Shown here: piece after piece, positions 43,848-59,801 of the stretch
Position numbering within the stretch: position 1 is the first letter of the stretch
How the letters are laid out: each line of letters opens with the position of its first letter
Assembly (NCBI RefSeq): GCF_045037415.1
Contig: NZ_CP173438.1
Strand: one strand, 5' to 3'
Length of the DNA stretch: 64,000 bases
From: Escherichia coli
Lineage (GTDB): Bacteria; Pseudomonadota; Gammaproteobacteria; Enterobacterales; Enterobacteriaceae
The notes under the pieces: model-generated
What the model saw: the letters and a program-made list of their open reading frames with translations, nothing else
Databases searched by the model: none
What the model was told of the DNA's origin: nothing
Translations under genes and position numbers: made by a program

Positions 43848-43998
43848 TCGTTTCGGCGCAATTTTCAGCAAACGATCAAAAGTGGTGAAAAATATCGTTG
43901 ACTCATCGCGCCAGGTAAGTAGAATGCAACGCATCGAACGGCGGCACTGATTGCCAGACGATAATAAAATCAAGTGATTAACTGATTGCTTGATGAAT

Positions 43999-44074
<76 letters not shown>

Positions 44075-44127
44075 GTTTAAAAGGCATCGGCGTCAGCGGA
44101 TGTCTGGCTGAAAGGCCTGAAGAATTT

Positions 44128-44201
44128 GGCGCGTTAACAAAGCGGTTATGTAGCGGATTGCAAATCCGTCTAGTCCGGTTCGACTCCGGAACGCGCCTCC
44201 A
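44128..44201 (+). tRNA. cysT: tRNA-Cys (anticodon GCA)
   Basis: GGCGCGTTAACAAAGCGGTTATGTAGCGGATTGCAAATCCGTCTAGTCCGGTTCGACTCCGGAACGCGCCTCCA. Confidence 0.95.
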
Positions 44202-44213
44202 CTTTTTTCCCGA

Positions 44214-44300
44214 GCCCGGATGGTGGAATCGGTAGACACAAGGGATTTAAAATCCCTCGGCGTTCGCGCTGTGCGGGTTCAAGTCCCGCTCCGGGTACCA
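44214..44300 (+). tRNA. leuZ: tRNA-Leu (anticodon TAA), long variable arm
   Basis: GCCCGGATGGTGGAATCGGTAGACACAAGGGATTTAAAATCCCTCGGCGTTCGCGCTGTGCGGGTTCAAGTCCCGCTCCGGGTACCA. Confidence 0.95.
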
Positions 44301-44343
44301 TGGGAAAGATAAGAATAAAATCAAAGCAATAAGCAGTGTCGTG

Positions 44344-44368
44344 AAACCACCTTCGGGTGGTTTTTTTG
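44344..44368 (+). terminator. Rho-independent terminator after the tRNA cluster
   Basis: AACCACC-TTCG-GGTGGTT hairpin followed by a T-run. Confidence 0.8.
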
Positions 44369-44430
44369 TATCTTCTTTCTCATTTCCGAAGATGCGTCCG
44401 AAGATGATTTTTCTCTGGACGCATCATCAT

Positions 44431-45447
44431 TCATTTTCTCTGGCCACCAACTACGGGCACTACTTTAACTTTCCGGTCATATGCTGCTGTCTGTCGCGGG
44501 TTCTTATGCCCGGAAATTGCTTGCTTCTCTTCCAGGCTGCCTTCCAGATCAGAGATACCTTTTGCTTTCAGATCATGAAATGTGAAGTCTATTTGCAGAT
44601 GAGGATATTTTTCCTGTGCTGCCGCTTTGACATCACGCCAACGAGAGTTAAAACCATCACGGGTATACTTGCCACCGGTAGTTTGATGAATCACAAACAG
44701 GCTACTGATTCCCGTTTTTAATGGCAGAGAACGAGCCAGAGCTATCGCTTTCTGCAGACGAGGCGACCAGGCTTTGATTTGCTTAACGCCGGTTTTTCCC
44801 TGACGAATGTAGATCCCGGAATCGAACAGCTGGTCTTTCTGCAATGAAAGTACATCACTCTGTCTGGCCACGCATAAGTAGGCAATCTCCATTGCTACGC
44901 GAACAACATCAGGAGACACTTCATAAACGGCCTGATATTCTTCATCCGTAATATAACGTTCGCGAGCTTTCTCTTTAAACTGTTTAACTCCCTGACAAGG
45001 ATTCCTCTGAACATAACCTCGTTCATAACCCCAACGGAATACCCGGGACATAAAGCTTTTTTCCCTGTTTGCCTGAGTTCGGCTTGATAAACCGCGTTGA
45101 TCCATATAGCGCCGAATATGTTCAGGTTTGATTTTATCCGGGTCGATCTTCCCGAAGACAGGCAGAACTTTTCCGGAATATTTTGTGTAGTCTTTCCGGG
45201 TTTCGACTGCCAAATCCATAAAATCAGGGGAGGTCATGAATTGTTCCGTGAGCGCCTGAAAAGTATTTCTTTCTTTTTCGTCACCGACCGCTTTTTCATA
45301 TGCCAGCCATACGGCTGATCGTGGTGCATCCAATGCGCACAGGCGTATCGCTTTGTTATCTTTATTCCTGAATTCGTAGGCCGCTTTGCCCTGGTAAACA
45401 CGAGGCGGCATCCAGTTATCTGCTGGGTTCTTTCTCTTTCCGGCCAT
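44431..45447 (-). CDS. int: Phage tyrosine integrase (lambda Int family)
   Basis: C-terminal catalytic region ...HDLKAKGISD...ISGHKNPRQTAAYDRK...; N-terminus MAGKRKNPADNWMPPRVY resembles the lambda Int arm-binding start; start codon ambiguous (45447 or 45477). Confidence 0.85.
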   Translation of the reverse strand: MAGKRKNPADNWMPPRVYQGKAAYEFRNKDNKAIRLCALDAPRSAVWLAYEKAVGDEKERNTFQALTEQFMTSPDFMDLAVETRKDYTKYSGKVLPVFGKIDPDKIKPEHIRRYMDQRGLSSRTQANREKSFMSRVFRWGYERGYVQRNPCQGVKQFKEKARERYITDEEYQAVYEVSPDVVRVAMEIAYLCVARQSDVLSLQKDQLFDSGIYIRQGKTGVKQIKAWSPRLQKAIALARSLPLKTGISSLFVIHQTTGGKYTRDGFNSRWRDVKAAAQEKYPHLQIDFTFHDLKAKGISDLEGSLEEKQAISGHKNPRQTAAYDRKVKVVPVVGGQRK

Positions 45448-45679
45448 TAAATATTGCTCCAAAATCAGGTTCATCATCTTTTCGCGTCGTCACCTCCTGT
45501 AAATTGCGAAATTTTATTGGGTTCATGAAATGGCCCCAGGTTGTTTTTGGGTGTCCGTCAGCCCTTTCCATGAAGAAAATTCCAGCCCGGCGAAGAGCCT
45601 CACATTGCTTTGATTTAAGTGGGCTTCCCGTCAGCTCGACCATTTCTTCTCTGGTGATTATGTCGTGATCGCTTTTCAT
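45416..45679 (-). CDS. xis: Excisionase-like DNA-binding protein (DUF4224-like)
   Basis: ITREEMVELTG...ALRRAGIFF...GHPK motif pattern; overlaps the integrase 5' end as is typical for xis-int. Confidence 0.55.
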   Translation of the reverse strand: MKSDHDIITREEMVELTGSPLKSKQCEALRRAGIFFMERADGHPKTTWGHFMNPIKFRNLQEVTTRKDDEPDFGAIFNGRKEKEPSR

Positions 45680-45869
45680 GGTCTTTCCTCATTATGTAGC
45701 TTATTGCGTCATCTGCCTTCTGGCAGGCACGGGCAATATCAGACTCGGTCAAAGTCTGTTTCCTGACGCTGGCCGACAGTCGACCAATTTTGATATCAAA
45801 TGCGGAGAGCAGAGTTGCTCCCGGTTGCCATCGCAGCATTGTGATCCTCCGGTGTCTGGTGAATCGCAA
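45615..45869 (-). CDS. Hypothetical small prophage protein (uncertain; overlaps the xis-like ORF in another frame)
   Basis: 84-aa ORF only; no recognisable domain. Confidence 0.25.
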   Translation of the reverse strand: MRFTRHRRITMLRWQPGATLLSAFDIKIGRLSASVRKQTLTESDIARACQKADDAISYIMRKDHEKRSRHNHQRRNGRADGKPT

Positions 45870-45888
45870 TGCTAGCGATGGTGAGTTT

Positions 45889-46071
45889 TTATTTCTGATT
45901 AGGCGTAATCAGTTCTTGTGGGGTGAATGCCGATTTCTCCCGAGTGACCTTAATGTTTTCTGGCAGGTGTAGCCCAAGTTCGCAGCGGCTCCGTGCTTCA
46001 ATAATGCCATTGGTACCATCGGCAAGTACCAGGTGAACCGCGTCACCACGCTTTAATGTGAGTTTAAGCAT
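45889..46071 (-). CDS. Hypothetical small prophage protein
   Basis: 60-aa ORF whose stop abuts the downstream gene's start. Confidence 0.4.
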   Translation of the reverse strand: MLKLTLKRGDAVHLVLADGTNGIIEARSRCELGLHLPENIKVTREKSAFTPQELITPNQK

Positions 46072-46640
46072 TAGCGTATCCTCAGTGACCGTTCGCCGCG
46101 TTCCAGATGTGCGCCTGGTACCGGGTTTAATAACTCGGCTGGTGGTGTTTCTCCACGCGCCAGTATTTCGGCGGCAACCGCCTCCGCAGATTCAATCACT
46201 TCTTTAATGGCTCGCTTGTTTGGTGTAATAACCGTTTCTACATCAACAAGTGACACGCCCTCATACTCATCCGGGATCTTATCTTTGCTATCGATAATTA
46301 CCCGGATAGTCCCCTGTGCATCAGTAAATGTGTTTTTTGCGGTTTTCAGTTTATCCAGGCCAGCAGCTTGCAGGCAGGTGAGCATATGCTTTCGAATTGC
46401 TTTTTCCTTGCCTTCAAAGGACGTCTTACGGGTTGCCAGGCGAGACATTTCTTCAGCGCAGGTATTGGCATTGCCCTGTAAATTACGGCAGATGACCATC
46501 ATGGCGTCCAGTTTGTCTCCCAGTTCTCCTTCCATGCCTTCAAGCGTGTCGGCGATCATCTCTGGCGTCAGTTCATCGGCGGTTTCTAACAGGTCAATCA
46601 GACTGGCATATTCTTTTGCAATAGCGATAGCAGTGCTCAT
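46071..46640 (-). CDS. Hypothetical prophage protein (possibly Gp157-like), immediately downstream of the SSAP gene
   Basis: 189-aa acidic helical protein; stop/start overlap with flanking genes suggests one operon. Confidence 0.55.
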   Translation of the reverse strand: MSTAIAIAKEYASLIDLLETADELTPEMIADTLEGMEGELGDKLDAMMVICRNLQGNANTCAEEMSRLATRKTSFEGKEKAIRKHMLTCLQAAGLDKLKTAKNTFTDAQGTIRVIIDSKDKIPDEYEGVSLVDVETVITPNKRAIKEVIESAEAVAAEILARGETPPAELLNPVPGAHLERGERSLRIR

Positions 46641-48853
46641 GCTGTTTGCTCCTGTGCAGCGGTAAGGGCGGCGAGGCGTTCAGTTTTAATGTCGGTGATA
46701 CGGCGCAGACGTGATCCCAGATACGATGAATATTCTTTATCGCCTTTGGTTTCCGCTGCTTTCCTGTGTACATCCACTTCGCGGGCGATGAGGCCAAATA
46801 CCTTGTTTACTTCGTTGGCGGTTACCGCGGCGGCCAGCGTATTGGCAACGTTGATAAGCTTCTCATCCAGTTCCTTACGCAGACGGGTAGCATCTTCCGC
46901 ATTCTCGCTGGCATTCTTGATATCAAACTCAGCTTTATTCCTCTGGCGGTATTCCGGATTGTCGTACAGGCCCATGAAAATATCGGCGCTGAATCCGAGA
47001 GGGGATAGCGCTTTCTTAACAGCATCCGTCCAGGATTTCTTCGGTGCTTCGCCGTCGCTTGTTGGTCCGTATTTAGTGTCGTAGATATAAGGTGTGCATC
47101 CGTAAGCCTCGGACTCACCGCGTACCCCATTCAATATGTACCAGACTCTCACTTTCATGGTGTGGTGCATTTCACATAGGTACCCGCCAACACCGTCTTG
47201 AATCAGATCCCATTCTATTTTTTCACCAACCTGTTTTTTGCGAACTATTGGTGCGCCTTTATCAAAGCGCTCCTCCAGCACCTCTACCCCCCAGCCAATA
47301 CCAAATGGCCCAAATTCGCGAGTCGCTTTCATCGCTATATAAGTGCCGTTGATGGATGTGCCGCCGCCATTCTGAGAGAAAGCACTGGTGAAGCGCTCAT
47401 CGGTTTTGAATACGTTCTTCCACAATGCCAGGTTATCCGTGTCATCTGAGTCCTTTAACTCCGTTTCGATAGCTGAGATTGCATTCTGCCGCTTGTGCTC
47501 TTCGGCATGGATCCGCTCAACCAGCGCGTCAACGTTCTGCACCAGATCCTTTACCTGCTCGCTAAGTTGTTCTTGTGGAGGAGTCTCTTCTGCCAGGGTA
47601 ATAGCTGCAGGTTCCCTCTGTGATACGGCGTTATTTTCAGGTACGTCATACACATGGCGAGGCGTGACAAACTGCTCACGCAACTGCTGCAAACTACGTT
47701 CTCCAGCATTTGCAGCTTCGCTTTTTTCGCCCTGATTTGAGGGTGTTTCTGACATCATCCCATCAATTGAGAATCGTCCGCCGCCGTGGTTGGTGACTTT
47801 TACATCATCCTTGGGTGCTGCTTCCTTTGGCTTCTCTTCAACAGCATTTGCATCACGCTGCCCGTTAGCTTGCAGCCAGTTGTCGATGTGACTGCGCAGG
47901 GATTGTGGGAAGTGGTACGTGTCTTTTGCGGGGGCGCTCTGAATAACACCGAATACTGATGCGCGGTCATAGGCAAGGATCTGATCCGTTGTGCGCAAGG
48001 CCATTGACCAGCGTTTAAAATCTTCCCTGTCCTGACTGATTATTTCGTCTGCCGCTTTCAGGATGCTGGGGGTGATTTTTTCCGGGGCAACAGGTAACAG
48101 GGCGCAGGCAATTTCACGATCCAGAGTGGCGTGAGTCTGTTTGTAAGGACGTGCGGATGCTGTTTCTGGTTTTACCTCCGGCAGCATTTCATCTCGTTTA
48201 CCGGGATTCTCTACCCATTTTTTTATAAATTTGGAGATAGTCCAACTGGTCGGGTTTTGTTCCTGGGTATCGCAACTTGCCAAAATTGCATGTACCAGAT
48301 TATTCAATCCAGCAATATGCATGTACTCGATGGGCTTACACGCCACCATGGCATCAAGAACGATGCGGTTAAACGCGTCAACCTCATCCTCACTGTCAGT
48401 ATCACTGTTATCGAGCATCTCCAGGTATTCACGCGTCTGCACAAGCAATTCACTGTCGACTTCGTTGGCGTCGTGGCTGAACAGCAGAACGGCGGCGAAT
48501 CGTTCACGAGCCGGCAGTTTCATCAGGTCGCTAACCTGTGAGATATCTGCTGAACTGCAATCTGAATCAACAGGAGTGTTAACTACCCATTTTTCGCCAT
48601 CAAAACTGTGTTCTGTGGCAAACGTCTCATCAAACTCACCGACGCCTGGGCGCGGTTGGCCCGGGGCATCTTCCCAGATTTTAGGTTTGAAATAGTTGTC
48701 GCCGTGGTCAGGGTAGGCTTCCCACAATTTGCCGATGATGATGTTCTCGGCAACTTTTTTGTTAGGGGCGGCGATGGCGATGGCCAGCGCCGGGATCGCG
48801 CCGTTTTTGAGCGCGCCTTTTTTCGCTTCTAACAAGCCGTTAAAAATGGTCAT
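46637..48853 (-). CDS. Large recombination protein: unassigned N-terminal region plus C-terminal Rad52/Sak-like single-strand annealing domain
   Basis: C-terminal FGPFGIGWGVEV ... TDAVKKALSPLGFSADIF pattern typical of Rad52-family SSAPs; acidic low-complexity linker mid-protein; 738 aa. Confidence 0.7.
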   Translation of the reverse strand: MTIFNGLLEAKKGALKNGAIPALAIAIAAPNKKVAENIIIGKLWEAYPDHGDNYFKPKIWEDAPGQPRPGVGEFDETFATEHSFDGEKWVVNTPVDSDCSSADISQVSDLMKLPARERFAAVLLFSHDANEVDSELLVQTREYLEMLDNSDTDSEDEVDAFNRIVLDAMVACKPIEYMHIAGLNNLVHAILASCDTQEQNPTSWTISKFIKKWVENPGKRDEMLPEVKPETASARPYKQTHATLDREIACALLPVAPEKITPSILKAADEIISQDREDFKRWSMALRTTDQILAYDRASVFGVIQSAPAKDTYHFPQSLRSHIDNWLQANGQRDANAVEEKPKEAAPKDDVKVTNHGGGRFSIDGMMSETPSNQGEKSEAANAGERSLQQLREQFVTPRHVYDVPENNAVSQREPAAITLAEETPPQEQLSEQVKDLVQNVDALVERIHAEEHKRQNAISAIETELKDSDDTDNLALWKNVFKTDERFTSAFSQNGGGTSINGTYIAMKATREFGPFGIGWGVEVLEERFDKGAPIVRKKQVGEKIEWDLIQDGVGGYLCEMHHTMKVRVWYILNGVRGESEAYGCTPYIYDTKYGPTSDGEAPKKSWTDAVKKALSPLGFSADIFMGLYDNPEYRQRNKAEFDIKNASENAEDATRLRKELDEKLINVANTLAAAVTANEVNKVFGLIAREVDVHRKAAETKGDKEYSSYLGSRLRRITDIKTERLAALTAAQEQTA

Positions 48854-48883
48854 TGGTCTTTCCTCATTACAGGTCAGTGGTTT

Positions 48884-49204
48884 TTAGTAGGGGAGCTCAT
48901 CGGTATCTGGCGTGTATTCGATGCAAAGTAACTGCTGGATTTTGTCATCGATAGCAGCAATACGCTGTTGGGCGTCGGCGACTGTTTTCTGTTTTTGTTC
49001 ACGCAGTTGCTCGACCTGTAAACCGATGATGTCGATTGGCTCGGGCTGGTTAACGGTAATTTCAATTTCGCGGCTTTCCAGAAGGATGTACCTGTCTGGA
49101 AAATTTTTTGACATATCAACAGTCGCAACAAGCAGCTTTTCGTGGCTGAAAGTTGAAGTTGCATAATGAATAAAGAGTGTTACTGGGATGGTGCGCGCTT
49201 CCAT
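48884..49204 (-). CDS. Hypothetical prophage protein
   Basis: 106-aa ORF with perfect RBS CCAAGGAG before the ATG. Confidence 0.55.
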   Translation of the reverse strand: MEARTIPVTLFIHYATSTFSHEKLLVATVDMSKNFPDRYILLESREIEITVNQPEPIDIIGLQVEQLREQKQKTVADAQQRIAAIDDKIQQLLCIEYTPDTDELPY

Positions 49205-49209
49205 AGCGA

Positions 49210-50214
49210 CTCCTTGGTAATGTATACTCAGAGCCGATCAGCGAATATTGATCAGCTTCCATAGCGTCAGTGTCGTTGGTCTTTCCTCATCACAAGTTTG
49301 GTCACTTGTGATAAATCCGAATGGTTTGGTCGCCGTTCGGGGTAACTGGCCCGCCTTGTGCGGGTCTTTTGCTATCTAAAGGGTGCCGGTTACGTTTCCG
49401 GCGTCGTTATGTTTCCATTACGACCGTACAGGGCTGGTCAGGCCCGGGCTGGTCTTTCCTGTTTTGAGCTGGTCAGGCTCATGGTCAACGCTGGTCAGGC
49501 GTGGTACTTCCTCCGGTCTTTCCCTGGTGTCACGCTGCGGGTTTGGCCTCTCCTGTTGGGGACTCAGGCACAGCGATAAAACCTGGCTGTGTGAAAAAAT
49601 GGCCCATCGTGCGGACTGGGCAAAGACTAAACACAGCAAATTGATGATGGGCGCCCGGAATCGAACCGGGTAACGGGCAGGGAGTTCCCGTTAAACACCT
49701 GTTCACCACAACCGGGAGCGCACTCCGCCATTTCAAAATTTAACGACAAAGCTCAAAGTTGAGTCGATGAAGTGCGCTCTCGTGTTGTAGCCAGGACTCT
49801 TCCCTGGTGGTCACACCGTATCGCCTTGATGGTGAATCAATCGCTCATACCTGGCTGTGGCTTGCACATTCCGGCTACCTGCTATGGAGACAACGCGTTA
49901 AGGCTCCGCTTCCATCCAGACCGCTTCGACACATGTGCCATATGCCGGTGAAGTCTTTCCCTCTGTCACCGTGTTGGCGCCGACGCGCAAAATTTGGTGC
50001 CGTCTTTCCGGCTGTCAGAACGTGTTTCTGAACAACTGCCGCTGGGTAAGCGTTGTTGATGAAAGTGACTTTACAATTTGTATTTGTAATGGTCAATGTG
50101 TTTTTAAAAAATAATTTGTAGTTAGGGGCAAAAAAATATTCACTGTGTAAAGGTGTTTTTGTGTTAGGGGAAAGTTGCATGCCAGCAGCGGCTGGCCTGG
50201 AAATTTGAACTGAA
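49210..50214. repeat. About 1-kb prophage noncoding region rich in short direct/inverted repeats (GCTGGTCAGGC and GGTCTTTCC families)
   Basis: No convincing ORF on either strand; GCTGGTCAGGC at 49433, 49468, 49491; TCTTTCCCTGGTG-like units near 49516, 49797, 49953. Confidence 0.6.
50071..50125. promoter_or_regulatory. Operator-like repeats downstream of the repressor gene (OL-like)
   Basis: TTACAATTTGTATTTGTAAT and ATAATTTGTAGTTA, related to the repeats in the cI/cro intergenic region. Confidence 0.4.
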
Positions 50215-50629
50215 CTATTTTGTCTGGTTTTTGGCTTCAAGTAGTTCTTTTAGCAGTAGATCGAAGTGCTCTCTTTTTTCTTTTAGCTCATTGATTAATT
50301 TATTTTTTTCGCTCTCAGGCAGTCCTCTGAATAGTTGCAGTAGAGCCTGTTCTTGCGGGGTTAGTTCTTGATTGTAATTACCCGGGTGTAGTGTGGATTC
50401 ATCCAAATATTCCCCTTCATTCATGAAGAAAAAATGAACAGGGTATCCGGTCACTTTTGCTAGCTTGTCTAATTTATCTTTTCTTGGAGTTACCCCATTA
50501 CACCATGCCTGAACTGATTGAGCCGTAACCCCAATATGGCGAGCTAACTCAGATTGAGAACCAGCCTAAGTCTTTTAGAATCCGTTGTAGTCGGCTAGCA
50601 AAAGCCATGTTTTTCGTTTTTGTGTTCAT
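50215..50629 (-). pseudogene. cI-like XRE-family HTH repressor, disrupted by a +1 frameshift
   Basis: N-terminal stub MNTKTKNMAFASRLQRILKDLGW then stop; the HTH continues SQSELARHIGVTAQSVQAWCNGVTPRKDKL... in the next frame; deleting one T in TGGTTCTC near 50558-50562 restores a single ORF. Confidence 0.7.
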
Positions 50630-50727
50630 ACCGTAAGGATACAAGGTTTAATTGTAGGGAGCATTGCAAATATAATTTGTAATTACAGTTATTGTTTGTA
50701 ATGATGACGCGGACACAAGGAGTCCAT
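50630..50727. promoter_or_regulatory. Divergent immunity promoter/operator region (OR-like) between cI-like and cro-like genes
   Basis: Perfect 10-bp palindrome TGTAATTACA at 50678-50687 plus TTGCAA and TTTGTAAT repeats; TATAAT-like -10 element. Confidence 0.55.
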
Positions 50728-50958
50728 ATGGATAAACAACTGCAAGACAAAATTCTTTCCGTAATGAGTCAATCCGAGTTAGGGCGGCGATTAGGGAAAA
50801 AACCACAAACGGTAAGCCTCTGGTTCAAAGGACGGGTTCCCGGTGAAGAGGTTTTGCGCACATCTGAAGCTCTTGAATGGCGCGTGACCCCTCATGATCT
50901 TAGACCGGATCTTTACCCAAACCCAGATGACAGCTTGCCTAAAACGGAAGCAGCTTAA
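50728..50958 (+). CDS. Cro-like HTH regulator (YdaS-like)
   Basis: MDKQLQDKILSVMSQSELGRRLGKKPQTVSLWFKGRVP HTH; AAGGAG RBS; divergent from the repressor. Confidence 0.7.
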   Translation: MDKQLQDKILSVMSQSELGRRLGKKPQTVSLWFKGRVPGEEVLRTSEALEWRVTPHDLRPDLYPNPDDSLPKTEAA

Positions 50959-51016
50959 CTGTTGGTGAGCCCCAAATCTGATTAAGCGTAATCAATTTTT
51001 AGCGACAGGAGACGCT

Positions 51017-51493
51017 ATGGAAAACCAAGAGGAATTACAAAAAGAGATTTTGACCTGGGCGGCAAGGGCAGGGCAGGAACTCGTCACGATTGAAATCTGC
51101 CGGGCCTGGTTCAGTCAGGGACGCAATGATGAGTTGAGACTACATGAATTTGAGGACGCGGACGGCAACGTGGACTGGAGAGCCATCAACAACAATCGGC
51201 AGAAAATCTTTCGCTGGTTACGTGGCGAGACAACGGCGGCGCGCCGAAAAACTCAGGTGCTGGCCAGTGTGATGAAAGCCGTGCTACCCGCAGAACGGCG
51301 GGCACGTCTGGAGTCGCCGGGCGATCCCGTTTTGCTGGCAACGCTGGCGGCAAAAGAAGGGGTGGAAGCGATTAACGCTGTACATCTCCACTTCGCGCCA
51401 GAGTTAACTATTCAGGAAATTGACGAAGCAATAGCGGCGCTGGTAGCGACGCGAGGAGCAGTGATACGCACTGCGCAAGACCACCATGCATGA
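51017..51493 (+). CDS. Hypothetical early regulatory protein (CII/YdaT-like position)
   Basis: 158-aa ORF with AGGAG RBS following cro-like gene. Confidence 0.5.
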   Translation: MENQEELQKEILTWAARAGQELVTIEICRAWFSQGRNDELRLHEFEDADGNVDWRAINNNRQKIFRWLRGETTAARRKTQVLASVMKAVLPAERRARLESPGDPVLLATLAAKEGVEAINAVHLHFAPELTIQEIDEAIAALVATRGAVIRTAQDHHA

Positions 51494-51532
51494 GCGCCTG
51501 ACCAGCGTTTAACTTATACCGAGGAAAGACCG

Positions 51533-51757
51533 ATGTTAAGACATATTGACCGCATTACCTGGCGTAACGGCTGGCACCTGAATGGACGCCCGGCACATGT
51601 TGCAGAGATCCGCCCCATATTCGATGGCCGCGTCGCAGCTGCACGTTCTGTATGGGAAAAGTACGAAGAAGAAAAAGCGAAACTGCGTGAGCAAAATCTC
51701 TCTGGCGCTGCCTATGAGGCTGGCTGTCGCGTTCTCTCAGAGGCTTTGGGCATATGA
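51533..51757 (+). CDS. Hypothetical small prophage protein
   Basis: 74-aa ORF preceded by the conserved CGCCTGACCAGCG...GAGGAAAGACC motif. Confidence 0.5.
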   Translation: MLRHIDRITWRNGWHLNGRPAHVAEIRPIFDGRVAAARSVWEKYEEEKAKLREQNLSGAAYEAGCRVLSEALGI

Positions 51758-52509
51758 ACATCCTCCCGTTACTTGATAGACCCATAGCCTTCCAGAGAAG
51801 TTTTATCCGTCTTGAAATGGGCGTGACTGCCGCATTGTTTCTGTCGCAGTTGACGTACTGGACAAACAGAACAACTGACGACGGCTGGGTATATAAAACC
51901 CAGGATGAGTGGGAAGAGGAAACAGGGCTTTCACGATACGAGCAGGAGGGCGCGCGCAAAAAACTACGTGGTCTCGGCGTCTTGCTGGAACGTAAACAGG
52001 GCTTGCCTGCCAGGCTGTACTACAAAATCGATAATGATGTGTTGTGCCAGCTACTTACGTCCGCATACAAGGATGCGGAAAAACCACATACAGGTGAGGG
52101 GAAAACCACCAGGCCTGTACGTGGAAAACCAACAAACATTCTTACAGAGAATACTACAGAGATTATTACTGATGGTGAATCGGCTGACGCCGACACCCAA
52201 CAACCTGCCGACCAGAGAATAAATTATCAGGTGATACTCGATACCTATCACGAGATTTTGCCAGAGATGCCACCAGTGAAAATCCTCACTGACGGCAGAA
52301 AAAAACACCTTCGCACTTTCTGGAAAAAATTCAATTTCAATGAGTCCCGTTGGCGGGCCTATCTGGAATTTATCGGTGGCAATTGTCGCTGGATGCTGGA
52401 GGACAGGCCAAATGGCAGGGGAGGATTCTGGCGGCGTAAAAATCTTGATTATCTGATTACCGAACGCTGCTATGTTTCGGTCAAGGAAGAACGCGCAAAT
52501 GATAAATAA
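51754..52509 (+). CDS. Phage replication initiation protein (O-like / replisome organiser)
   Basis: N-terminal winged-helix-like region and conserved phage C-terminus (...GGFWRRKNLDYLI); immediately precedes the helicase. Confidence 0.65.
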   Translation: MNILPLLDRPIAFQRSFIRLEMGVTAALFLSQLTYWTNRTTDDGWVYKTQDEWEEETGLSRYEQEGARKKLRGLGVLLERKQGLPARLYYKIDNDVLCQLLTSAYKDAEKPHTGEGKTTRPVRGKPTNILTENTTEIITDGESADADTQQPADQRINYQVILDTYHEILPEMPPVKILTDGRKKHLRTFWKKFNFNESRWRAYLEFIGGNCRWMLEDRPNGRGGFWRRKNLDYLITERCYVSVKEERANDK

Positions 52510-53914
52510 CGCGATTGCACTGTACAGCGTTGACGCAGAACAGGCTGTTCTGGGCTGTCTGATGCTGAATACCGACCACGACAGAACCAATGCGGTATTT
52601 GCGTTACTGAAACCGGAAACGTTTTATATCAATGCGCATCAGGTTATCTACCGGGAGATCAAAGGATTATTTCAAGCTGATAAACCAACTGACCTGATAA
52701 CACTGACCGAACTGATGGAATCGAAGGGGCTGTATGAGCGCGTGGGGGGATTCGCATACCTGGCTGAAATGAGTAAGGCGGCGATTCCGGCCTCAATGGT
52801 CAACTACGCGAAAATTGTACGTGAAAAAGCCATTCTTCGTTATGCCGTGGAAAAGTTGAATTCTTGTCTGGAGATTATGATCCAGCCTGCAGATATGACT
52901 GCTACTGACAGGATCACCGCCGTTCAGCAAGTGATTGGGCAGGTGGCCGAACATTCCCGTACCGGGCATAAGGGCGGTTTGCGTCCGGCAAGTGAAGTCG
53001 TCGATGACTGGATAGATGACCTTGAGCGCCGTTTCAATGATCCAGCACATGCAGCCGGACTAACGCTCGGAATCGAAAGCCTTGATCGCTTAATGGCACC
53101 AAAGCAGGCGTTAAGAGGTTCATTGGTCGTTATTGGTGCCCGGCCAAAAATGGGCAAGACAGCCGCGTTTAATAAAATTGCGGTGCATTTTGCTCTGAAT
53201 CATCGTTTGCCGACGCTGGTATTTAGCCTGGAAATGACTGACAGAAGTCTCATTGAACGCATGGTTGCGCAGGAAGCAAAGGTCAATTCGGAGATTTTTT
53301 ATCTTGGCCCTAACGATGAATCTGAATTGAGTCTCGCAATAGCAAAGGCGGGGGAGATTGCCGAATCCAACATGATGATTGACAGCACGGCAGGTGTAAC
53401 CCTTGCGCATATTGTCGCTGAATGTCGAAAAGTTAAACGGATGCGTGGCTCGGTTGGCCTGGTGGCAATTGACTATTTGACGCTGATGAAGACCGAATCG
53501 GCAGAGCGTAGGGATATTGCGTATGGCGATATCACAACCGGTTTGAAGAACCTGGCAAAAGAGCTGGATTGTGTTGTGGTCCTGCTGACGCAACTCAACC
53601 GAAAGCTTGAAGAACGTGCCGATAAGCGGCCTAACCCGAGCGACAGTAAAGATACCGGGCAGATCGAACAAGATTGCGATGTCTGGATTGGCCTCTATCG
53701 TGATGCTGTTTATAACGAAAATGCCGACCCAAATCTCATGGAAATGTTGCTACGTCTGAACCGCGAAGGACCATCGGGAACAGCCTATGCCCTGATGAAA
53801 AATGGCTCAGTTATTGATATCAGCGATGAGGAGGTTTATCGCCTTACCAACGACCGCTCAGAAAAAAATAAACGTTATTCCCGTAGCGATAATTCTCGCA
53901 CAAATGAATTTTAA
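52499..53914 (+). CDS. Replicative DNA helicase, DnaB family (phage-encoded)
   Basis: DnaB N-terminal domain (AEQAVLGCLML...), Walker A GARPKMGKTA, RecA-like core. Confidence 0.9.
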   Translation: MINNAIALYSVDAEQAVLGCLMLNTDHDRTNAVFALLKPETFYINAHQVIYREIKGLFQADKPTDLITLTELMESKGLYERVGGFAYLAEMSKAAIPASMVNYAKIVREKAILRYAVEKLNSCLEIMIQPADMTATDRITAVQQVIGQVAEHSRTGHKGGLRPASEVVDDWIDDLERRFNDPAHAAGLTLGIESLDRLMAPKQALRGSLVVIGARPKMGKTAAFNKIAVHFALNHRLPTLVFSLEMTDRSLIERMVAQEAKVNSEIFYLGPNDESELSLAIAKAGEIAESNMMIDSTAGVTLAHIVAECRKVKRMRGSVGLVAIDYLTLMKTESAERRDIAYGDITTGLKNLAKELDCVVVLLTQLNRKLEERADKRPNPSDSKDTGQIEQDCDVWIGLYRDAVYNENADPNLMEMLLRLNREGPSGTAYALMKNGSVIDISDEEVYRLTNDRSEKNKRYSRSDNSRTNEF

Positions 53915-53952
53915 CCACGCCTGACCAGCGTGAAATAACCGAGGAAAGACCA

Positions 53953-54363
53953 ATGACCACCACTCCAGGCAAATTAGAGTACCCGTCGGACAAAGGACAC
54001 ATAGACGACGGTAAAAACTATCTCGACGTCATTTTGTGGAATATGAACGTCGGGCCACGTGCGCGCACTCGCGCGGTTTTTGTGCCAAGACCTAAAGCAG
54101 GCAATTTTTCAACCCCTGCTAAGCCTGCCCGTCAGGCATCCGTAGCCGCAGCGCCAGCAGTGAAACGTAAGGGCAAAACGCACACCGGGATCGCGATTCG
54201 CAGAAATGGTGAGCGGCAAGTGAAACTCCACGAAACAGCGACAACCTGGTGTGCCTCACCGCATGAAACTTACGACAAGATAACCGGGCAGCGCATTGGC
54301 GCGCCTGGTCGCTGCCGCCTGCTGCTGAGTTCCATCACTCCGATAGCAAAGAAAGGGGCGTGA
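53953..54363 (+). CDS. Hypothetical prophage protein
   Basis: 136-aa ORF preceded by the conserved intercistronic motif. Confidence 0.5.
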   Translation: MTTTPGKLEYPSDKGHIDDGKNYLDVILWNMNVGPRARTRAVFVPRPKAGNFSTPAKPARQASVAAAPAVKRKGKTHTGIAIRRNGERQVKLHETATTWCASPHETYDKITGQRIGAPGRCRLLLSSITPIAKKGA

Positions 54364-54364
54364 T

Positions 54365-54601
54365 ATGGCCGGGCAATCAGATTACCTGCCGCCCGGCTTA
54401 CCACACAACCGCGCCAAATGGCCCCAGGAATACCAGCTTAAAGAGCACTACGACATGCGAGCGGCGGCGCTGATCCGCCAACTCTTTGAGAAACGTATTC
54501 CGAGGGGAAGCGTGATTGAGCAAATCGGAATGACGCCAGATACGTACCGGGAATTTTTCAGAGAGCGTCTGAACTACTGGAGAGGGGTGATGGAACAATG
54601 A
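54365..54601 (+). CDS. Hypothetical prophage protein
   Basis: 78-aa ORF, start abuts upstream stop. Confidence 0.45.
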   Translation: MAGQSDYLPPGLPHNRAKWPQEYQLKEHYDMRAAALIRQLFEKRIPRGSVIEQIGMTPDTYREFFRERLNYWRGVMEQ

Positions 54602-54909
54602 AATACAAACGGTGGGTGCGTGCGGAAGTCGTAATCATCAAACAATGTGCGGGCAGCATGACAGTTGAACGTATAGGGCAGCTTATTGGCAGAACCGGTG
54701 CAGCGGTACGCACAAAAGCGCGCGAGCTGAAAATCTGTATGTATCTGCGGGGTAATTATCACCAGTCAGTGAAATACCTCCAGGAAGATATCGAGCTGGC
54801 AAGGGAATTACATCAGTCGGGTATTAATCGCCAGGATATCGCAGAAAAACTCGAAATGCCGATCGGAGCGGTGAATCAGTTTGTTTATTTTGAGCGGAGA
54901 ATTTCATGA
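54598..54909 (+). CDS. Hypothetical prophage protein with HTH-like segments
   Basis: 103-aa ORF; stop/start overlaps on both sides. Confidence 0.45.
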   Translation: MKYKRWVRAEVVIIKQCAGSMTVERIGQLIGRTGAAVRTKARELKICMYLRGNYHQSVKYLQEDIELARELHQSGINRQDIAEKLEMPIGAVNQFVYFERRIS

Positions 54910-55130
54910 AAGAACTTTTTCTTGCATTTGTGCCCCGGTTTATTAATGACCAGATCGCACTGACTGATAATGGTGAACAATATGAAATTGCCTGCAGCAT
55001 GGTGGATGTGAATCCTGGCGAACGGTATGACGCGATGTGTGACCTGAAAATATTTACCTGGCTGGGTTGGGCTATTCCGTGTGGAGAACCAACCAATATT
55101 CGTCCGTTTGAGAGCAGGGAGGCTGTATGA
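54906..55130 (+). CDS. Hypothetical prophage protein
   Basis: 74-aa ORF. Confidence 0.4.
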   Translation: MKELFLAFVPRFINDQIALTDNGEQYEIACSMVDVNPGERYDAMCDLKIFTWLGWAIPCGEPTNIRPFESREAV

Positions 55131-55317
55131 GTGAATTGAAAATACGTCGCAAGGCAATAGCACGCGTTAAAAATCTATTACCAGTGCCTGTCAAATATCG
55201 TTTTTGTGGTGGGAATGTACGGATTGGTACGGATGTATGGTGATTGCGGAGTGACGTAAAACGAATCGTTGTGGGTGTAATATCGTCAATATCATTGGTT
55301 TCCCGGAGGGAAAGGAC

Positions 55318-55539
55318 ATGTTTGGCGATAAACTGGAGTTACCACGGAACGGGCGGATAGTGCTCTATATTTCAGATTACAAAGTAACCCGGGCTGAGGT
55401 GTTGGAACCGGAAAAACATCTGGTCACGTTACCGGACATTATTGAGTTGTATAAGCGGGTCGGATATGTGGACTTGCATCGCGATGATGTTCCCGTTGAG
55501 TGTATGGAATGTGAACACCGGAGGTTTGAAGTTGATTGA
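55318..55539 (+). CDS. Hypothetical prophage protein
   Basis: 73-aa ORF with GGAGG-like RBS. Confidence 0.45.
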   Translation: MFGDKLELPRNGRIVLYISDYKVTRAEVLEPEKHLVTLPDIIELYKRVGYVDLHRDDVPVECMECEHRRFEVD

Positions 55540-55763
55540 ATTGACTTAGAAAAAGTCCGGGGCTATAGTTTCCGCGCAGCCGCAAAATCGGTTGCCGGGA
55601 TTGGCGTCCCGGATATCTAAGTGACGCATAGCCGCGTTAGCGGTTTTTTTATGTGTTAGGCACGGCCACATTCGCATTATGGTGGGCTGTGTGGGGGCTT
55701 CTGTGGAAGCGCCGGGTTCACTTAGCCGGTTACGCCAACCCTGCACAGCTCACCACCAGATGA

Positions 55764-56600
55764 TTGGCGTCGCTGGTGGTGATGAAAAAAACACTAAGTG
55801 AGGCCACTGCGATGACAGTCCAAATATCTGCGGAATCCCTTTCTCCGCTACATCATAACCAACTTCCCGTCATCACTACTGAATTGCTTGCCAGTTTGTA
55901 TGGCACGGAAGTAAATGGTATCCAGCAAAACTTCAAGCGCAACATCGCCAGATTTGTCGTAGGAAAGCATTTTTTTAAGCTGGAAGGTAATGAATTACGC
56001 GACTTCAAAAACAGACTGACAGATAGTCAGTCAGTTGCTAAACATACCCGATCCCTCATTCTCTGGACAGAACGCGGCGCAGCTCGCCATGCCAAAATGC
56101 TGGAAACAGAACAGGCCTGGGAAGTTTTCGAAAAGCTGGAAGATTGTTATTTTAGCCAGCGTCCAGAGAGGCGGAGTACAACTACCGATGACCGTACTCC
56201 CTTGCGTGATGCCGTTAATATACTGGTCGGCAAGAAAGGCATGATGTATCCCGATGCCTACACCATGATTCATCAACGCTTCGCCGTCTCTCACATAGAA
56301 CAACTGTCACAGACGCAAATGTTAGAGGCGATTGAATACATCCACTGCCTGCTACTCGATGAAAATCACCCAACCATTCCAGATTTTTCTTTTATCACCA
56401 CTATCAAAAATGGAAAAGTGACCGGGATGCGCCATGTTGCCAAAGGCGAACATCTGATGACCTTTGACGCTTTCAAAGAGATCGCTGAGCGGGCAGGGTA
56501 TCTGGTGATCCACAGCGACAATCTGCGAAGTATGACACTGGATAAATTGATGGTAATGGGGAAAAAGTCGGCTATATCCGTTGCTAATTCAGCATTTTGA
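55764..56600 (+). CDS. ORF6N/KilA-N-domain protein (antirepressor-like)
   Basis: N-terminal ...LPVITTELLASLYGTEVNGIQQNFKRNIARFVVGKHFFKLEGNELRDF... pattern; start codon uncertain. Confidence 0.6.
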   Translation: MASLVVMKKTLSEATAMTVQISAESLSPLHHNQLPVITTELLASLYGTEVNGIQQNFKRNIARFVVGKHFFKLEGNELRDFKNRLTDSQSVAKHTRSLILWTERGAARHAKMLETEQAWEVFEKLEDCYFSQRPERRSTTTDDRTPLRDAVNILVGKKGMMYPDAYTMIHQRFAVSHIEQLSQTQMLEAIEYIHCLLLDENHPTIPDFSFITTIKNGKVTGMRHVAKGEHLMTFDAFKEIAERAGYLVIHSDNLRSMTLDKLMVMGKKSAISVANSAF

Positions 56601-56628
56601 CAGGTTGTTTGGGGCGGAAATACTCTAT

Positions 56629-56696
56629 TTGCGCTTAAAAAGGTATTTGACCACGACCAGCACGAGACCGAATACCTCTGTCAAAGTACCGCCCAT
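56629..56696. repeat. Direct repeat copy 1 (68 bp): 3'-end remnant of a membrane-protein gene
   Basis: 63 of 68 positions identical to 60051-60118; minus strand encodes a 23-codon remnant MGGTLTEVFGLVLVVVKYLFKRK preceded by a stop. Confidence 0.85.
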
Positions 56697-56774
56697 ATAA
56701 AACAGTTACATATGCACTTGATGACTAAGCTGGCACCAGGTTAACACCTGGCGCCAGCTTGAAGGAGACTTCAG

Positions 56775-57698
56775 TTATTGGTTTCTGAGGAAAGCGATTC
56801 TTGAAAGGGTCATTTGCGTCTGGCAGTCGACCATTTTCTTGACTTCAGCATCTGTTCCCTGCATTGAAACTTTACCGCACATAGCATCCTTAGTTTTGAT
56901 CCACTGACGCTGAGAAGGCAGCAAATCTTTTTTCTTCGCCGGGGTTAACTTGCTCCAGACGGTACTCAAATCAGAGTCGGCATTCGCAAATGCCATTCGG
57001 GACTGATCAAGGTTGTCAGCTTTTTGCGGCTGAAGTTGTGCCTGTCTCTCTATTTGCTTCTCCGCCTCATACTTAGCCTGTTCTTGCGCCCTGAGTTGCA
57101 CCTGTTGTTCCGCTTCAATTTGACTCTGTTGGGCATCCTTAGCCTGCTGGATTTTCTGCTGCTCAACGATCGGGGTGATAATGGAAAGCGATGTCAGTAA
57201 AGCGGCGCCCACTGATATCGGATTATCAGTAGAGGTTTTTACAAAAACGTTTTTCTGATCGTCGGTCGCCTGCACGGTGTAGGTGATACGTTTTGAAAAG
57301 GCGTTTGCGTTGTTCTCCAAAAACAGGCTTTCCATTTGCTTATCGAGATTACGATTAAAATTCTTTCTGTAAGCATCTGAAAGCTGGACGTACTCGTTCG
57401 CAGATAGAGTCATCGTCACGGTCCCTTCACAAGTTTTCATTGTGCTGCCCGTGTCACTTGATGTTGTGGAGATCTCAGAGATGGCTAGTTTGATCTTGTC
57501 CAGTGTGCTTCGTTTGGTCTGATTAGTGACATCAGGGTATTTATCGACCTGTTCAGAGAGTCCTTCATAAGCAGATTTTTTTAATAAATCCATGAGAGCT
57601 GACTGGGTTATTTCCGAAGAACAACCGATCTCATCTTTTTTGTTATCACAGCCTGTAAGGGCAATGGCGAGTAAGAGTACTGAGTATTTTAATCTCAT
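56775..57698 (-). CDS. Prophage lipoprotein with LprI/DUF1311-like C-terminal region
   Basis: Lipobox LTGC after signal peptide MRLKYSVLLLAIA; Gln-rich coiled-coil middle; C-terminal two-Cys region ...WIKTKDAMCGK...MVDCQTQMTLSRIAFL. Confidence 0.65.
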   Translation of the reverse strand: MRLKYSVLLLAIALTGCDNKKDEIGCSSEITQSALMDLLKKSAYEGLSEQVDKYPDVTNQTKRSTLDKIKLAISEISTTSSDTGSTMKTCEGTVTMTLSANEYVQLSDAYRKNFNRNLDKQMESLFLENNANAFSKRITYTVQATDDQKNVFVKTSTDNPISVGAALLTSLSIITPIVEQQKIQQAKDAQQSQIEAEQQVQLRAQEQAKYEAEKQIERQAQLQPQKADNLDQSRMAFANADSDLSTVWSKLTPAKKKDLLPSQRQWIKTKDAMCGKVSMQGTDAEVKKMVDCQTQMTLSRIAFLRNQ

Positions 57699-59584: not shown

Positions 59585-59769
59585 CCCAGATGATTCGTAT
59601 CAAGGTAAGTTGCTATATGTATCAATTTAATTATGGTTGGGTGAAATTTATGTTAATAGTAGCGGAGGGTTAGTTAAAATATGCTCTCAGTGATTTTTGG
59701 ATAGTTCTTTTATTTATCATTGAAAGTAAATATGTATAGCTTCAAGATTTACAAGTGAATCTGTTTATT

Positions 59770-59801
59770 GACAGTCCGCTTATGGCACAGAGCGGACTGT
59801 C
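59770..59801 (+). terminator. Hairpin, possible terminator of the 232-aa gene
   Basis: Inverted repeat GACAGTCCGC...GCGGACTGTC; weak downstream T-run. Confidence 0.4.

What the first reader, a model, noticed from the sequence alone, without database searches (positions are those of the whole stretch)
44214..45679. Prophage integrated at the tRNA-Leu 3' end; attL expected to overlap the tRNA
The integrase gene ends 130 bp after the tRNA. Lambdoid phages integrating into tRNAs duplicate the tRNA 3' segment at the far end of the prophage, which lies outside this window, so attR cannot be verified here.
Basis: partly seen in the sequence, partly recalled or inferred. Interest (0 to 1): 0.35.

Follow-up and report, generated by a model that had tools for sequence, protein, structure and literature searches.

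The report
Prophage inserted in leuZ tRNA gene
A well-known kind of event: a 42.6-kb E. coli ST131 prophage sits in the anticodon loop of the tRNA-Leu gene leuZ and brings its own copy of the gene's second half and terminator, so the tRNA stays intact. The finding is correct but ordinary.

Summary
The window is E. coli ST131-type chromosome, 99.986% identical to JJ1886. tRNA-Leu(UAA), leuZ, lies at 44214-44300. A lambda-family tyrosine integrase gene (44431-45447, minus strand) stops 130 bp after it and is followed by a DUF4224 excisionase.

Homology to unoccupied E. coli loci breaks at 44369/44370. In full-length copies (JJ1886, isolateI) an exact 125-bp direct repeat, window 44245-44369, recurs 42.6 kb away next to yecA.

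- **Extent of the repeat.** It starts at the anticodon loop (TTTAAAA) and covers the last 56 nt of the tRNA plus 69 nt that include the operon terminator.
- **Relatives.** Free phages mEp390 (attP annotated), Fostie and ZF40 have integrases 63-64% identical and the same attP layout.
- **Crossover.** SNPs in a mEp390-like remnant (strain MB20) place the crossover within about 30 bp that contain the anticodon loop.
- **Arm sites.** Arm-type repeats (TCCGAAGATG, two copies) lie at 44385-44406.
- **Frequency.** leuZ is a documented prophage site, and about 7.5% of complete E. coli genomes carry this prophage.

This is ordinary and already known in kind. Side notes: the integrase clade has Lys in place of catalytic Arg II, and the ST131 copy has a frameshifted tail gene D.

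The parts
43898..43925 (+). Promoter-like site (TTGACT-16-TAGAAT) upstream of the glyW-cysT-leuZ tRNA cluster
   Evidence: Consensus scan, 10 of 12 matches. Context only.
43999..44201 (+). tRNA-Gly(GCC) 43999-44074 and tRNA-Cys(GCA) 44128-44201, upstream members of the tRNA cluster
   Evidence: ARAGORN and Rfam RF00005.
44214..44300 (+). tRNA-Leu(UAA) = leuZ. It is intact. The anticodon TAA is at 44248-44250, the anticodon stem at 44241-44245 and 44253-44257, and the loop TTTAAAA at 44246-44252.
   Evidence: ARAGORN, Rfam at 57.7 bits. Identical to leuZ of the unoccupied strain EC22.
44245..44369 (+). attL identity block. This 125 bp is repeated exactly at attR in full-length copies. It starts at the anticodon loop and covers the tRNA 3' 56 nt plus a 69-nt spacer with the terminator.
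   Evidence: the repeat finder on isolateI gives two 125-nt copies at 100% identity, 42,612 bp apart. JJ1886 gives the same result.
44244..44273 (+). Inferred strand-exchange interval. It contains the 7-nt anticodon loop at 44246-44252, the most likely overlap region.
   Evidence: In MB20, which carries a mEp390-type Int 63% identical, attL has the phage alleles at every polymorphic position from 44274 rightwards and attR has the host alleles. Left of 44244 the pattern is reversed. Four diverged attP sequences and an unrelated 520873-like phage all lose homology at the same loop edge.
44343..44369 (+). Intrinsic terminator of the tRNA operon (hairpin plus T-run). It forms the right end of the att identity block.
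   Evidence: Terminator scan. The sequence break with unoccupied loci is at 44369/44370.
44385..44406 (+). Two direct copies of TCCGAAGATG (44385-44394 and 44397-44406). These are candidate P' arm-type integrase binding sites.
   Evidence: Exact tandem copies. mEp390, Fostie and ZF40 each have their own tandem 8-10-mers at the same place. P-arm copies lie at matching positions, -114 (+) and about -50 (-), in both this phage and mEp390. Binding itself is inferred.
44391..44425 (.). 9-bp inverted repeat, GATGCGTCC (44391-44399) and GGACGCATC (44417-44425), overlapping the arm sites and lying just 3' of the int stop codon. Function unknown.
   Evidence: k-mer analysis and direct reading.
44431..45447 (-). 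int, a 338-aa lambda-family tyrosine integrase. Catalytic residues are R195, K218, H291, K294 (at the Arg II position), H314 and Y323.
   Evidence: Pfam PF00589 and PF22022. PHROG_1 integrase at 2e-51. Alignment to lambda Int 1z19/1z1b. Alignment with four relatives. The start at 45447 agrees with the RefSeq annotation and with the relatives; an in-frame ATG at 45477 is probably not used.
45416..45679 (-). xis, an 87-aa DUF4224 excisionase (recombination directionality factor). It overlaps the int start by 32 nt.
   Evidence: Pfam PF13986 at 1e-14. PHROG_1266 excisionase at 5e-35.
44370..64000 (.). Left 19.6 kb of the prophage: int-xis, early genes, immunity region, replication genes, cargo genes and the start of the Q region. 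The remaining ~23 kb (lysis, head, contractile tail, attR) lies beyond the window end.
   Evidence: 99.986% identical to JJ1886. Gene content from the RefSeq annotation of isolateI and JJ1886 and from PHROGs.

Best explanation
The region is attL of a 42.6-kb temperate phage genome. The phage has lambda-like regulation and head genes and a P2-like tail, and it is integrated into leuZ, the tRNA-Leu(UAA) gene of an E. coli ST131-type chromosome.

The phage attP carries a 125-bp copy of the host sequence. [quoted passage not shown]

The phage's lambda-family tyrosine integrase most likely bound arm-type repeats flanking this block. These are TCCGAAGATG (two copies) on the int side and degenerate copies at about -114 and -52 on the other side. 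It then exchanged strands at or next to the 7-nt anticodon loop (TTTAAAA), whose flanking stem (AGGGA/TCCCT) provides the inverted core sites.

Integration therefore left:
- at attL, an intact hybrid leuZ made of 31-32 host nucleotides plus about 56 phage-supplied nucleotides and a phage-supplied terminator, all identical in sequence to the original;
- at attR, next to yecA, the displaced host 3' half and terminator.

Excision would need Int plus the adjacent DUF4224 excisionase.

Shown directly: the tRNA, int, xis, the junction, the 125-bp repeat in full-length copies, the shared attP layout in relatives, and the crossover interval in one relative. Inferred: the exact cleavage positions, arm-site binding, host-factor use, and present-day activity.
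For: - **tRNA and genes:**
- **Junction:** homology to 5,000+ unoccupied genomes stops at query position 1070-1074, which is window 44369-44373. The empty locus EC22 runs leuZ-terminator-yecA.
- **att repeat:** exact 125-bp direct repeats flank 42.6 kb of phage genes in isolateI and JJ1886. The window is 99.986% identical to JJ1886 over 21.3 kb.
- **Shared attP layout:** mEp390 (GenBank-annotated attP), Fostie and ZF40 have the order int, tandem arm repeats, terminator, tRNA-Leu 3' half. In all of them homology ends at the anticodon loop. Their integrases are 63-64% identical to this one.
- **Crossover mapping:** in MB20 the phage and host alleles are partitioned between attL and attR, which maps the crossover to window-equivalent 44244-44273.
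- **Arm sites:** positions are concordant between this phage and mEp390.
- **Site specificity of the clade:** every IMG/VR relative (64-100% Int identity) in which a complete tRNA could be called, 17 of the 34 longer-flank loci scanned, has tRNA-Leu(UAA) about 133-145 bp past int, usually followed by tRNA-Cys and tRNA-Gly; the 17 without a call are either cut before the tRNA's end, with too little flank to hold a whole tRNA, or full-flank loci of which only L015-L017 were examined.
- **Tandem arrays:** arrays with a 520873-like prophage share the same loop boundary.
- **Literature:** leuZ is listed as a prophage or integrative-element site in E. coli (PMC8767318, PMC7067040, PMC4313913).
Against: - attR of this particular genome is not in the window. 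It is inferred from near-identical genomes.
- attL and attR are identical in this prophage, so its own crossover point cannot be read from sequence. The mapping comes from a 63%-identical relative.
- The P-arm sites carry 2-3 mismatches to the P' motif and are supported only by their positions.
- No contiguous attP (circular or free phage form) of this exact phage was found in IMG/VR or in the phage collection.
- The integrase has Lys at the Arg II position.
- The ST131 copy has a frameshift in tail gene D, so present-day mobility and virion production are uncertain.
Confidence: 0.9

Rival explanations
1. The element is the same, but strand exchange occurs elsewhere in the 125-bp identity block. 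Candidates are the T-loop or 3' end of the tRNA or the terminator.
For: attL and attR are 100% identical over 125 bp in this prophage, so the sequence alone does not fix the crossover. Many other integrases use the T-loop or 3' end of tRNA genes (general knowledge).
Against: In the MB20 relative every polymorphism from the T-stem rightwards segregates as phage type in attL and host type in attR. That excludes a crossover at the T-loop, 3' end or terminator for that integrase. Five independent attP/P-arm sequences lose homology exactly at the 5' edge of the anticodon loop. The symmetric anticodon stem is the only good inverted repeat at that boundary.
Confidence: 0.06
2. The element is a defective (cryptic) prophage fixed in the ST131 lineage. 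It is no longer an inducible phage and is kept for its cargo genes. Its att/int/xis module is a relic.
For: The sequence is near-identical in about 400 complete genomes, most of them human ST131-type isolates, which suggests vertical inheritance. There is a +1 frameshift in the P2 gpD-like tail gene relative to the GF131 variant. No free-phage record or circular attP of this exact phage was found.
Against: int, xis, both att repeats and the arm repeats are intact, and all structural modules are present. Lineages that carry the prophage also include diverged variants at the same site (GF131, RM10042). Tandem arrays exist, which shows recent mobility of the family. This reading concerns present activity and does not contradict how the element got there.
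Confidence: 0.4
3. The element is not a phage. It is a tRNA-associated genomic island or phage satellite that merely carries an integrase.
For: leuZ also hosts non-phage integrative elements in some E. coli lineages (PMC7067040, PMC4313913).
Against: Full-length copies encode terminase, portal, capsid, a complete contractile tail, lysis genes, Q, replication genes and an immunity region. Free phages with the same int/attP module exist.
Confidence: 0.01

Closest known systems
Enterobacteria phage mEp390 (JQ182729), Escherichia phage Fostie and Pectobacterium phage ZF40: int/xis/attP modules
   Same: The gene order is the same: xis, int, tandem arm repeats, terminator, tRNA-Leu(UAA) 3' half, ending at the anticodon loop. 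The integrases are 63-64% identical and share the TFHDLKAKG active-site motif. The mEp390 attP is annotated in GenBank at exactly this block.
   Different: The arm-repeat sequences differ: TTCGCCAT, TTCATAATA and TCCTAATAT versus TCCGAAGATG. Their attP tRNA halves carry SNPs relative to E. coli leuZ, whereas this phage's copy is identical. The rest of each genome is unrelated: mEp390 is a siphovirus-type lambdoid (Hendrixvirinae), while this phage has a contractile tail.
Lambda Int/Xis/attP, the heterobivalent tyrosine integrase paradigm
   Same: Both have a catalytic domain homologous to lambda Int (1z19/1z1b, E about 1e-9). Both have an adjacent small excisionase and an att site with repeated arm motifs on both sides of the core.
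   Different: Lambda uses a 15-bp core between gal and bio, not a tRNA gene. Here the identity block is 125 bp and restores a tRNA gene and its terminator. Arg II (lambda R311) is Lys here. Lambda's N-terminal arm-binding Pfam domain was not detected.
Phages that integrate in tRNA anticodon loops, e.g. P22 at thrW and HP1 at a tRNA-Leu gene (recalled from the literature on tRNA integration-site sublocations, not re-checked here)
   Same: The crossover lies at the 7-nt anticodon loop with the stem as inverted core sites. The phage carries the tRNA 3' portion, so the gene is reconstituted at the int-proximal junction.
   Different: The integrase lineage and the target tRNA or host differ. Membership in those integrase subfamilies was not tested.
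Escherichia phage 520873 (Xuanwuvirus, Peduoviridae) prophage
   Same: It uses the same leuZ site with the same homology boundary at the anticodon loop. It is found in tandem with the ST131-type prophage in three IMG/VR contigs.
   Different: It is an unrelated phage. Its integrase was not examined.

Membership tests
Tyrosine recombinase / phage integrase (Pfam PF00589) | Catalytic domain scores above the Pfam gathering threshold | tested here: met
   PF00589 scores 34.9 bits against a cutoff of 27.1. PF22022 (Phage_int_M) scores 31.4 against 27. PHROG_1 integrase gives 2.4e-51.
Tyrosine recombinase / phage integrase (Pfam PF00589) | [quoted passage not shown] | tested here: inconclusive
   R195, K218, H291, H314 and Y323 are aligned and invariant. 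The Arg II position (lambda R311) is K294 in this protein and in all relatives checked. Lys occurs at Arg II in 0.5% of natural tyrosine recombinases, and Cre R292K is active (PMC2943603). The substitution is therefore rare but does not exclude membership.
Heterobivalent (lambda-type) integrase system | Arm-type binding sites on both sides of the core, distinct from the core sites | tested here: met
   Two exact TCCGAAGATG copies lie in the P' arm. Degenerate copies lie at -114 (+) and -52 (-) in the P arm, at the same positions as the mEp390 TTCGCCAT copies (-114 +, -49 -). Analogous repeats occur in Fostie and ZF40. Binding itself is not testable with these tools.
Heterobivalent (lambda-type) integrase system | N-terminal arm-binding domain | tested here: inconclusive
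   No Pfam family matched residues 1-73. Only PHROG_22903, of unknown function, covers residues 1-102. No structure prediction was run.
Heterobivalent (lambda-type) integrase system | Adjacent recombination directionality factor (excisionase) | tested here: met
   A DUF4224 / PHROG_1266 excisionase gene overlaps the int start.
tRNA anticodon-loop integration site | The attP/attB identity block starts at the anticodon loop and runs through the tRNA 3' end, with an intact tRNA at the int-proximal junction | tested here: met
   The block is 44245-44369 and the loop is 44246-44252. The tRNA at attL is intact.
tRNA anticodon-loop integration site | A displaced partial tRNA copy at the distal junction (attR) | tested here: met
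   Present next to yecA in isolateI and JJ1886. It could not be read for this genome because it lies outside the window.
tRNA anticodon-loop integration site | Strand exchange within the 7-nt loop | not testable with these tools
   The crossover was narrowed to about 30 nt containing the loop in a 63%-identical relative. Exact cleavage sites need biochemistry.
Lambdoid phage | Lambda-like order of immunity (CI/Cro/CII-like), O-like replication, Q antiterminator, lysis and lambda-type head genes | tested here: met
   PHROG CII-like and O-like hits, a DnaB helicase and an anti-repressor. RefSeq annotation gives Q, holins, terminase, gpW, portal, S49 protease, decoration protein, capsid and FI.
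Lambdoid phage | Lambda-type non-contractile tail | tested here: not met
   Full-length copies encode a P2-type baseplate (V, W, J, I), sheath, tube, and X and D proteins. The element is a lambda-head / P2-tail mosaic.

The most novel reading that the evidence does not exclude
The leuZ-specific integrase clade carries Lys in place of the catalytic Arg II: TFHDLKAKG is invariant in all five aligned integrases (this one, mEp390, MB20, Fostie, ZF40), the same motif is encoded at 80 of the 87 integrase-bearing loci fetched (7 have no exact match and were not examined), and no locus encodes Arg there. The most novel reading is that this is a functional adaptation rather than a tolerated quirk. In engineered Cre and topoisomerase IB, the same Arg-to-Lys change slows ligation and makes the covalent intermediate accumulate. 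A natural Lys might therefore tune the cleavage/ligation balance or the directionality of recombination at an essential single-copy tRNA gene. The evidence here shows only conservation, not consequence.
Probability: 0.12. Interest if true: 0.35.

Novelty: already known. Interest (0 to 1): 0.12.

Why it matters
The main value is for annotation. The true prophage boundary is 44369/44370, not the tRNA end. The att site is a 125-bp block that starts in the anticodon loop. The tRNA 3' half and the operon terminator now in use are supplied by the phage.

In relatives such as MB20, this replacement actually changes the leuZ sequence: a compensatory T-stem pair and the terminator loop differ. Integration at this site can therefore rewrite a tRNA that, as far as I recall, is single-copy in E. 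coli.

The prophage is a stable marker of the ST131 lineage, found in about 7.5% of complete E. coli genomes. It carries cargo that may merit separate study: a CapP/ImmA-like peptidase module, a P2 hot-spot gene, and an IsrK/C4 anti-repressor switch. None of this alters current understanding of site-specific integration.

Tried and rejected
1. **Free or circular attP.** I searched IMG/VR for a contiguous attP of this exact phage (P arm + 125 bp + P' arm) and found no hits. The phage collection holds only computational right-end fragments that include yecA (vB_EcoM-705R4 and similar), not a free genome.
2. **Mapping the crossover for this integrase itself.** I used the single attL/attR difference in the 96%-identical GF131 variant, a C/T in the terminator stem. 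The T allele is private to that strain, so it is probably a later mutation and is uninformative.
3. **Published name for the ST131 prophage at leuZ.** I looked among the EC958 Phi1-Phi7 prophages. The EC958 papers read here do not state the insertion sites, so no name is given.
4. **NCBIfam.** It gave no hit for Int or Xis.
5. **The inverted repeat at 44391-44425.** I considered it as the int terminator and rejected that, because no T-run follows it on the minus strand (reading).
6. **The 44-nt CRISPR matches.** I considered that they might indicate a phage-borne repeat-spacer unit and rejected it. Each is an ordinary 32-nt type I-E spacer match with an ATG PAM plus a fortuitous extension into repeat-like sequence.
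7. **Technical note.** Several fetched loci were not available to run_python, so some comparisons were done through JJ1886 (L009) rather than isolateI (L002).

Full report
**What is at the coordinates**

ARAGORN finds three tRNA genes: tRNA-Gly(GCC) at 43999-44074, tRNA-Cys(GCA) at 44128-44201 and tRNA-Leu(UAA) at 44214-44300. Rfam confirms all three. They follow uvrY-uvrC-pgsA and are preceded by a promoter-like site at 43898-43925. A strong intrinsic terminator closes the cluster at 44343-44369. This is the E. coli glyW-cysT-leuZ operon.

On the minus strand, 130 bp after the tRNA, a 338-aa ORF (44431-45447) ends. It passes the Pfam thresholds for Phage_integrase and Phage_int_M. It matches PHROG_1 'integrase' at 2e-51 and aligns to the catalytic domain of lambda Int structures. 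An 87-aa DUF4224 / PHROG_1266 excisionase gene (45416-45679) overlaps its start.

**Where the window comes from, and the unoccupied site**

Window 43300-45700 matches 5,425 of 5,426 complete E. coli genomes. Only 428 of them cover the integrase part. In the rest, homology stops at query position 1070-1074, which is window 44369-44373. In an unoccupied strain (EC22) the terminator is followed directly by yecA.

The 19.6 kb to the right of 44370 is present at 80% coverage or more in 406 genomes, nearly all at about 100% identity. These include JJ1886, O25b:H4 and other ST131 strains. The window is 99.986% identical to JJ1886 over 21.3 kb.

**The far border**

In the full-length copies of isolateI and JJ1886 the element is 42.6 kb. 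It ends next to yecA with an exact copy of window 44245-44369. The two 125-nt repeats are 100% identical and lie 42,612 and 42,611 bp apart respectively. The window contains only one copy.

The repeat begins at the anticodon loop: stem AGGGA 44241-44245, loop TTTAAAA 44246-44252, anticodon 44248-44250. It runs through the last 56 nt of the tRNA and 69 further nt to the last base of the terminator T-run.

**Comparative evidence for the mechanism**

Three free phages carry the same module next to integrases that are 63-64% identical:
- mEp390, whose GenBank record annotates this block as attP;
- Fostie;
- Pectobacterium phage ZF40.

In each, homology to tRNA-Leu begins at exactly the same loop edge. 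To the left of it the sequences are unrelated.

The right end of an unrelated P2-family prophage (phage 520873) abuts the same TTTAAAA. In three IMG/VR contigs that right end is joined through the 125-bp block to the P' arm and int of the ST131-type phage. This indicates tandem prophages at one site.

Among IMG/VR relatives spanning 64-100% Int identity, 34 loci with some sequence beyond int were scanned. Seventeen give tRNA-Leu(UAA), starting about 133-145 bp past int and usually followed by tRNA-Cys and tRNA-Gly. Of the seventeen without a tRNA call, ten to eleven stop before the end of the tRNA gene, which would lie at about position 3,734-3,746 of the locus, so a complete tRNA could not have been called there. 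The remaining six or seven run well past that point yet give no tRNA call. L015-L017 are three of these and were examined (the tandem arrays described above). L061, L070, L071, L083, L090 and probably L051 were not examined.

The most direct evidence comes from strain MB20, which holds a 5.7-kb mEp390-type remnant at leuZ. Its attL carries the phage alleles at every polymorphic position to the right of the loop: T-stem GTGTGGG/CCCAC, the spacer, and the terminator loop. Its attR carries the host alleles, identical to the empty site. To the left of the loop the assignment is reversed. The crossover therefore lay within window-equivalent 44244-44273. This ~30-nt interval holds the anticodon loop and excludes the T-loop, the 3' end and the terminator.

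**Arm sites**

Just beyond the identity block the window has two exact copies of TCCGAAGATG, at 44385-44394 and 44397-44406. mEp390, Fostie and ZF40 each have their own tandem 8-10-mers at the same place.

In the reconstructed attP of this phage, degenerate copies lie at -114 (direct, 2 mismatches) and -52 (inverted, 3 mismatches) relative to the block start. In mEp390, exact copies of its motif lie at -114 (direct) and -49 (inverted). My rough estimate is that such positional agreement arises by chance at about 1e-4. This supports a lambda-style heterobivalent integrase, although binding is inferred.

A 9-bp inverted repeat (44391-44399 and 44417-44425) overlaps these sites. I cannot explain it.

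**Most likely mechanism**

Int, probably with host bending proteins, assembles on the attP arms. It pairs the phage copy of the anticodon stem-loop with that of leuZ and exchanges strands in or beside the 7-nt loop.

The intact leuZ now at attL is a hybrid: 31-32 host nucleotides, then a phage-supplied 3' half and terminator. Here these are identical in sequence to the originals, so tRNA function and operon termination are preserved. The displaced host 3' half and terminator sit at attR. Excision would need Int plus the DUF4224 protein.

- Shown: the anatomy, the repeat, the family-wide layout, and the crossover interval in a relative.
- Inferred: the exact cleavage sites, protein binding, and present activity.

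**Comparison with what is known**

This is the classical tRNA anticodon-loop integration pattern carried out by a lambda-family integrase. leuZ is already listed as a prophage or integrative-element site in E. coli O121, O145 and O78 (PMC8767318, PMC7067040, PMC4313913). The EC958/ST131 prophage complement has been catalogued (PMC3203889, PMC4134206). I could not find which named prophage this one is.

'Lambdoid' is only partly apt. The immunity, replication, Q, lysis and head genes are lambda-like, but the tail is a P2-type contractile tail.

**Things noticed**

- **Lys at Arg II.** The integrase has Lys at the Arg II position (TFHDLKAKG). This is invariant in the five aligned relatives. The same motif is encoded at 80 of the 87 integrase-bearing loci fetched; the other 7 have no exact match and were not examined. 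No locus encodes Arg there. Lys at this position occurs in only 0.5% of tyrosine recombinases. Cre R292K is active but defective in ligation (PMC2943603).
- **Frameshift in gene D.** The JJ1886 copy has a +1 frameshift in the P2 gpD-like tail gene relative to the GF131 variant. The ST131 prophage may therefore be defective for virions.
- **Other items.** The remaining observations (IsrK/C4, the CapP-like module, CRISPR spacer matches, the P2-EC58-like segment) are listed separately.

**Verdict**

It is an ordinary, already-known kind of feature, present in hundreds of sequenced genomes. Interest is low.

Noticed in passing
window 44566-44568 (codon for K294 of int, minus strand); motif TFHDLKAKG: The integrase has Lys where tyrosine recombinases almost always have the second catalytic Arg (lambda R311). 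It is invariant in the five aligned integrases. The same motif is encoded at 80 of the 87 integrase-bearing loci fetched; the other 7 have no exact match and were not examined. No locus encodes Arg at that position. The literature reports Lys at this position in only 0.5% of the family, and reports Cre R292K as active but defective in ligation.
   Followed up: partly
L009 (JJ1886) reverse-complement 42316-43360, outside the window: The P2 gpD-like tail gene of the ST131 prophage has a 1-nt insertion (extra A) relative to the GF131 variant. This truncates the protein from 347 to about 257 aa, so the prophage may be unable to make tails.
   Followed up: partly
L015-L017 (IMG/VR contigs), positions about 3515-3900: In these contigs the same int, P' arm and 125-bp block are followed by the right end of a 520873-like (Xuanwuvirus) prophage instead of the tRNA 5' half. 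This indicates two different prophages in tandem at leuZ that share one att core.
   Followed up: partly
L008 (strain MB20) 438-6234: A 5.7-kb remnant of a mEp390-type prophage at leuZ carries int, xis, IS1, gtrABC-like O-antigen modification genes and humD. Its attL gives leuZ a phage-derived T-stem pair (C-G changed to U-A) and an altered terminator loop.
   Followed up: partly
window 55563-55760 (+), upstream of ORF 55764-56600: Rfam finds isrK (80 bits), C4 antisense RNA (75 bits) and its a1/b1 target just before an anti-repressor gene (PHROG_4792). This is a P1/P7 immI-like or Gifsy IsrK-like antisense switch inside the prophage.
   Followed up: no
window 49484-49515; also about 57663-57706 and 60910-60944: Type I-E CRISPR arrays of other E. 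coli strains (e.g. XDL) carry spacers that match this prophage. The first protospacer has an ATG PAM and lies in a ~1-kb stretch (49205-50214) with no annotated gene.
   Followed up: partly
window 60047-61150 (-): An ImmA/IrrE-type metallopeptidase (PADLOC capP, 2e-25; also RmrA-like) sits upstream of a 201-aa protein with a C-terminal hydrophobic segment (by reading). This is a possible regulated cargo or defence module in the prophage accessory region.
   Followed up: no
window about 58128-59840, including ORF 58886-59584 (+): The segment is 87% identical to the P2-EC58 hot-spot insert ('putative lysogenic protein' flanked by inverted repeats). The protein has a weak PADLOC hit to a DRT accessory protein (RTasTM, 2e-5). 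It looks like a moron shared between P2-like and this phage.
   Followed up: no
window 56626-56703 and 60048-60125: A 78-81-nt direct repeat (about 89% identity). One copy forms the 3' end of ORF 60047-60652. The other is intergenic and corresponds to a truncated gene in the GF131 variant. It is probably a scar of cargo-gene exchange.
   Followed up: no
window 44391-44399 and 44417-44425: A 9-bp perfect inverted repeat (GATGCGTCC / GGACGCATC) overlaps the two arm-type repeats, immediately 3' of the int stop codon. It is not followed by a T-run, and its function is unknown.
   Followed up: no
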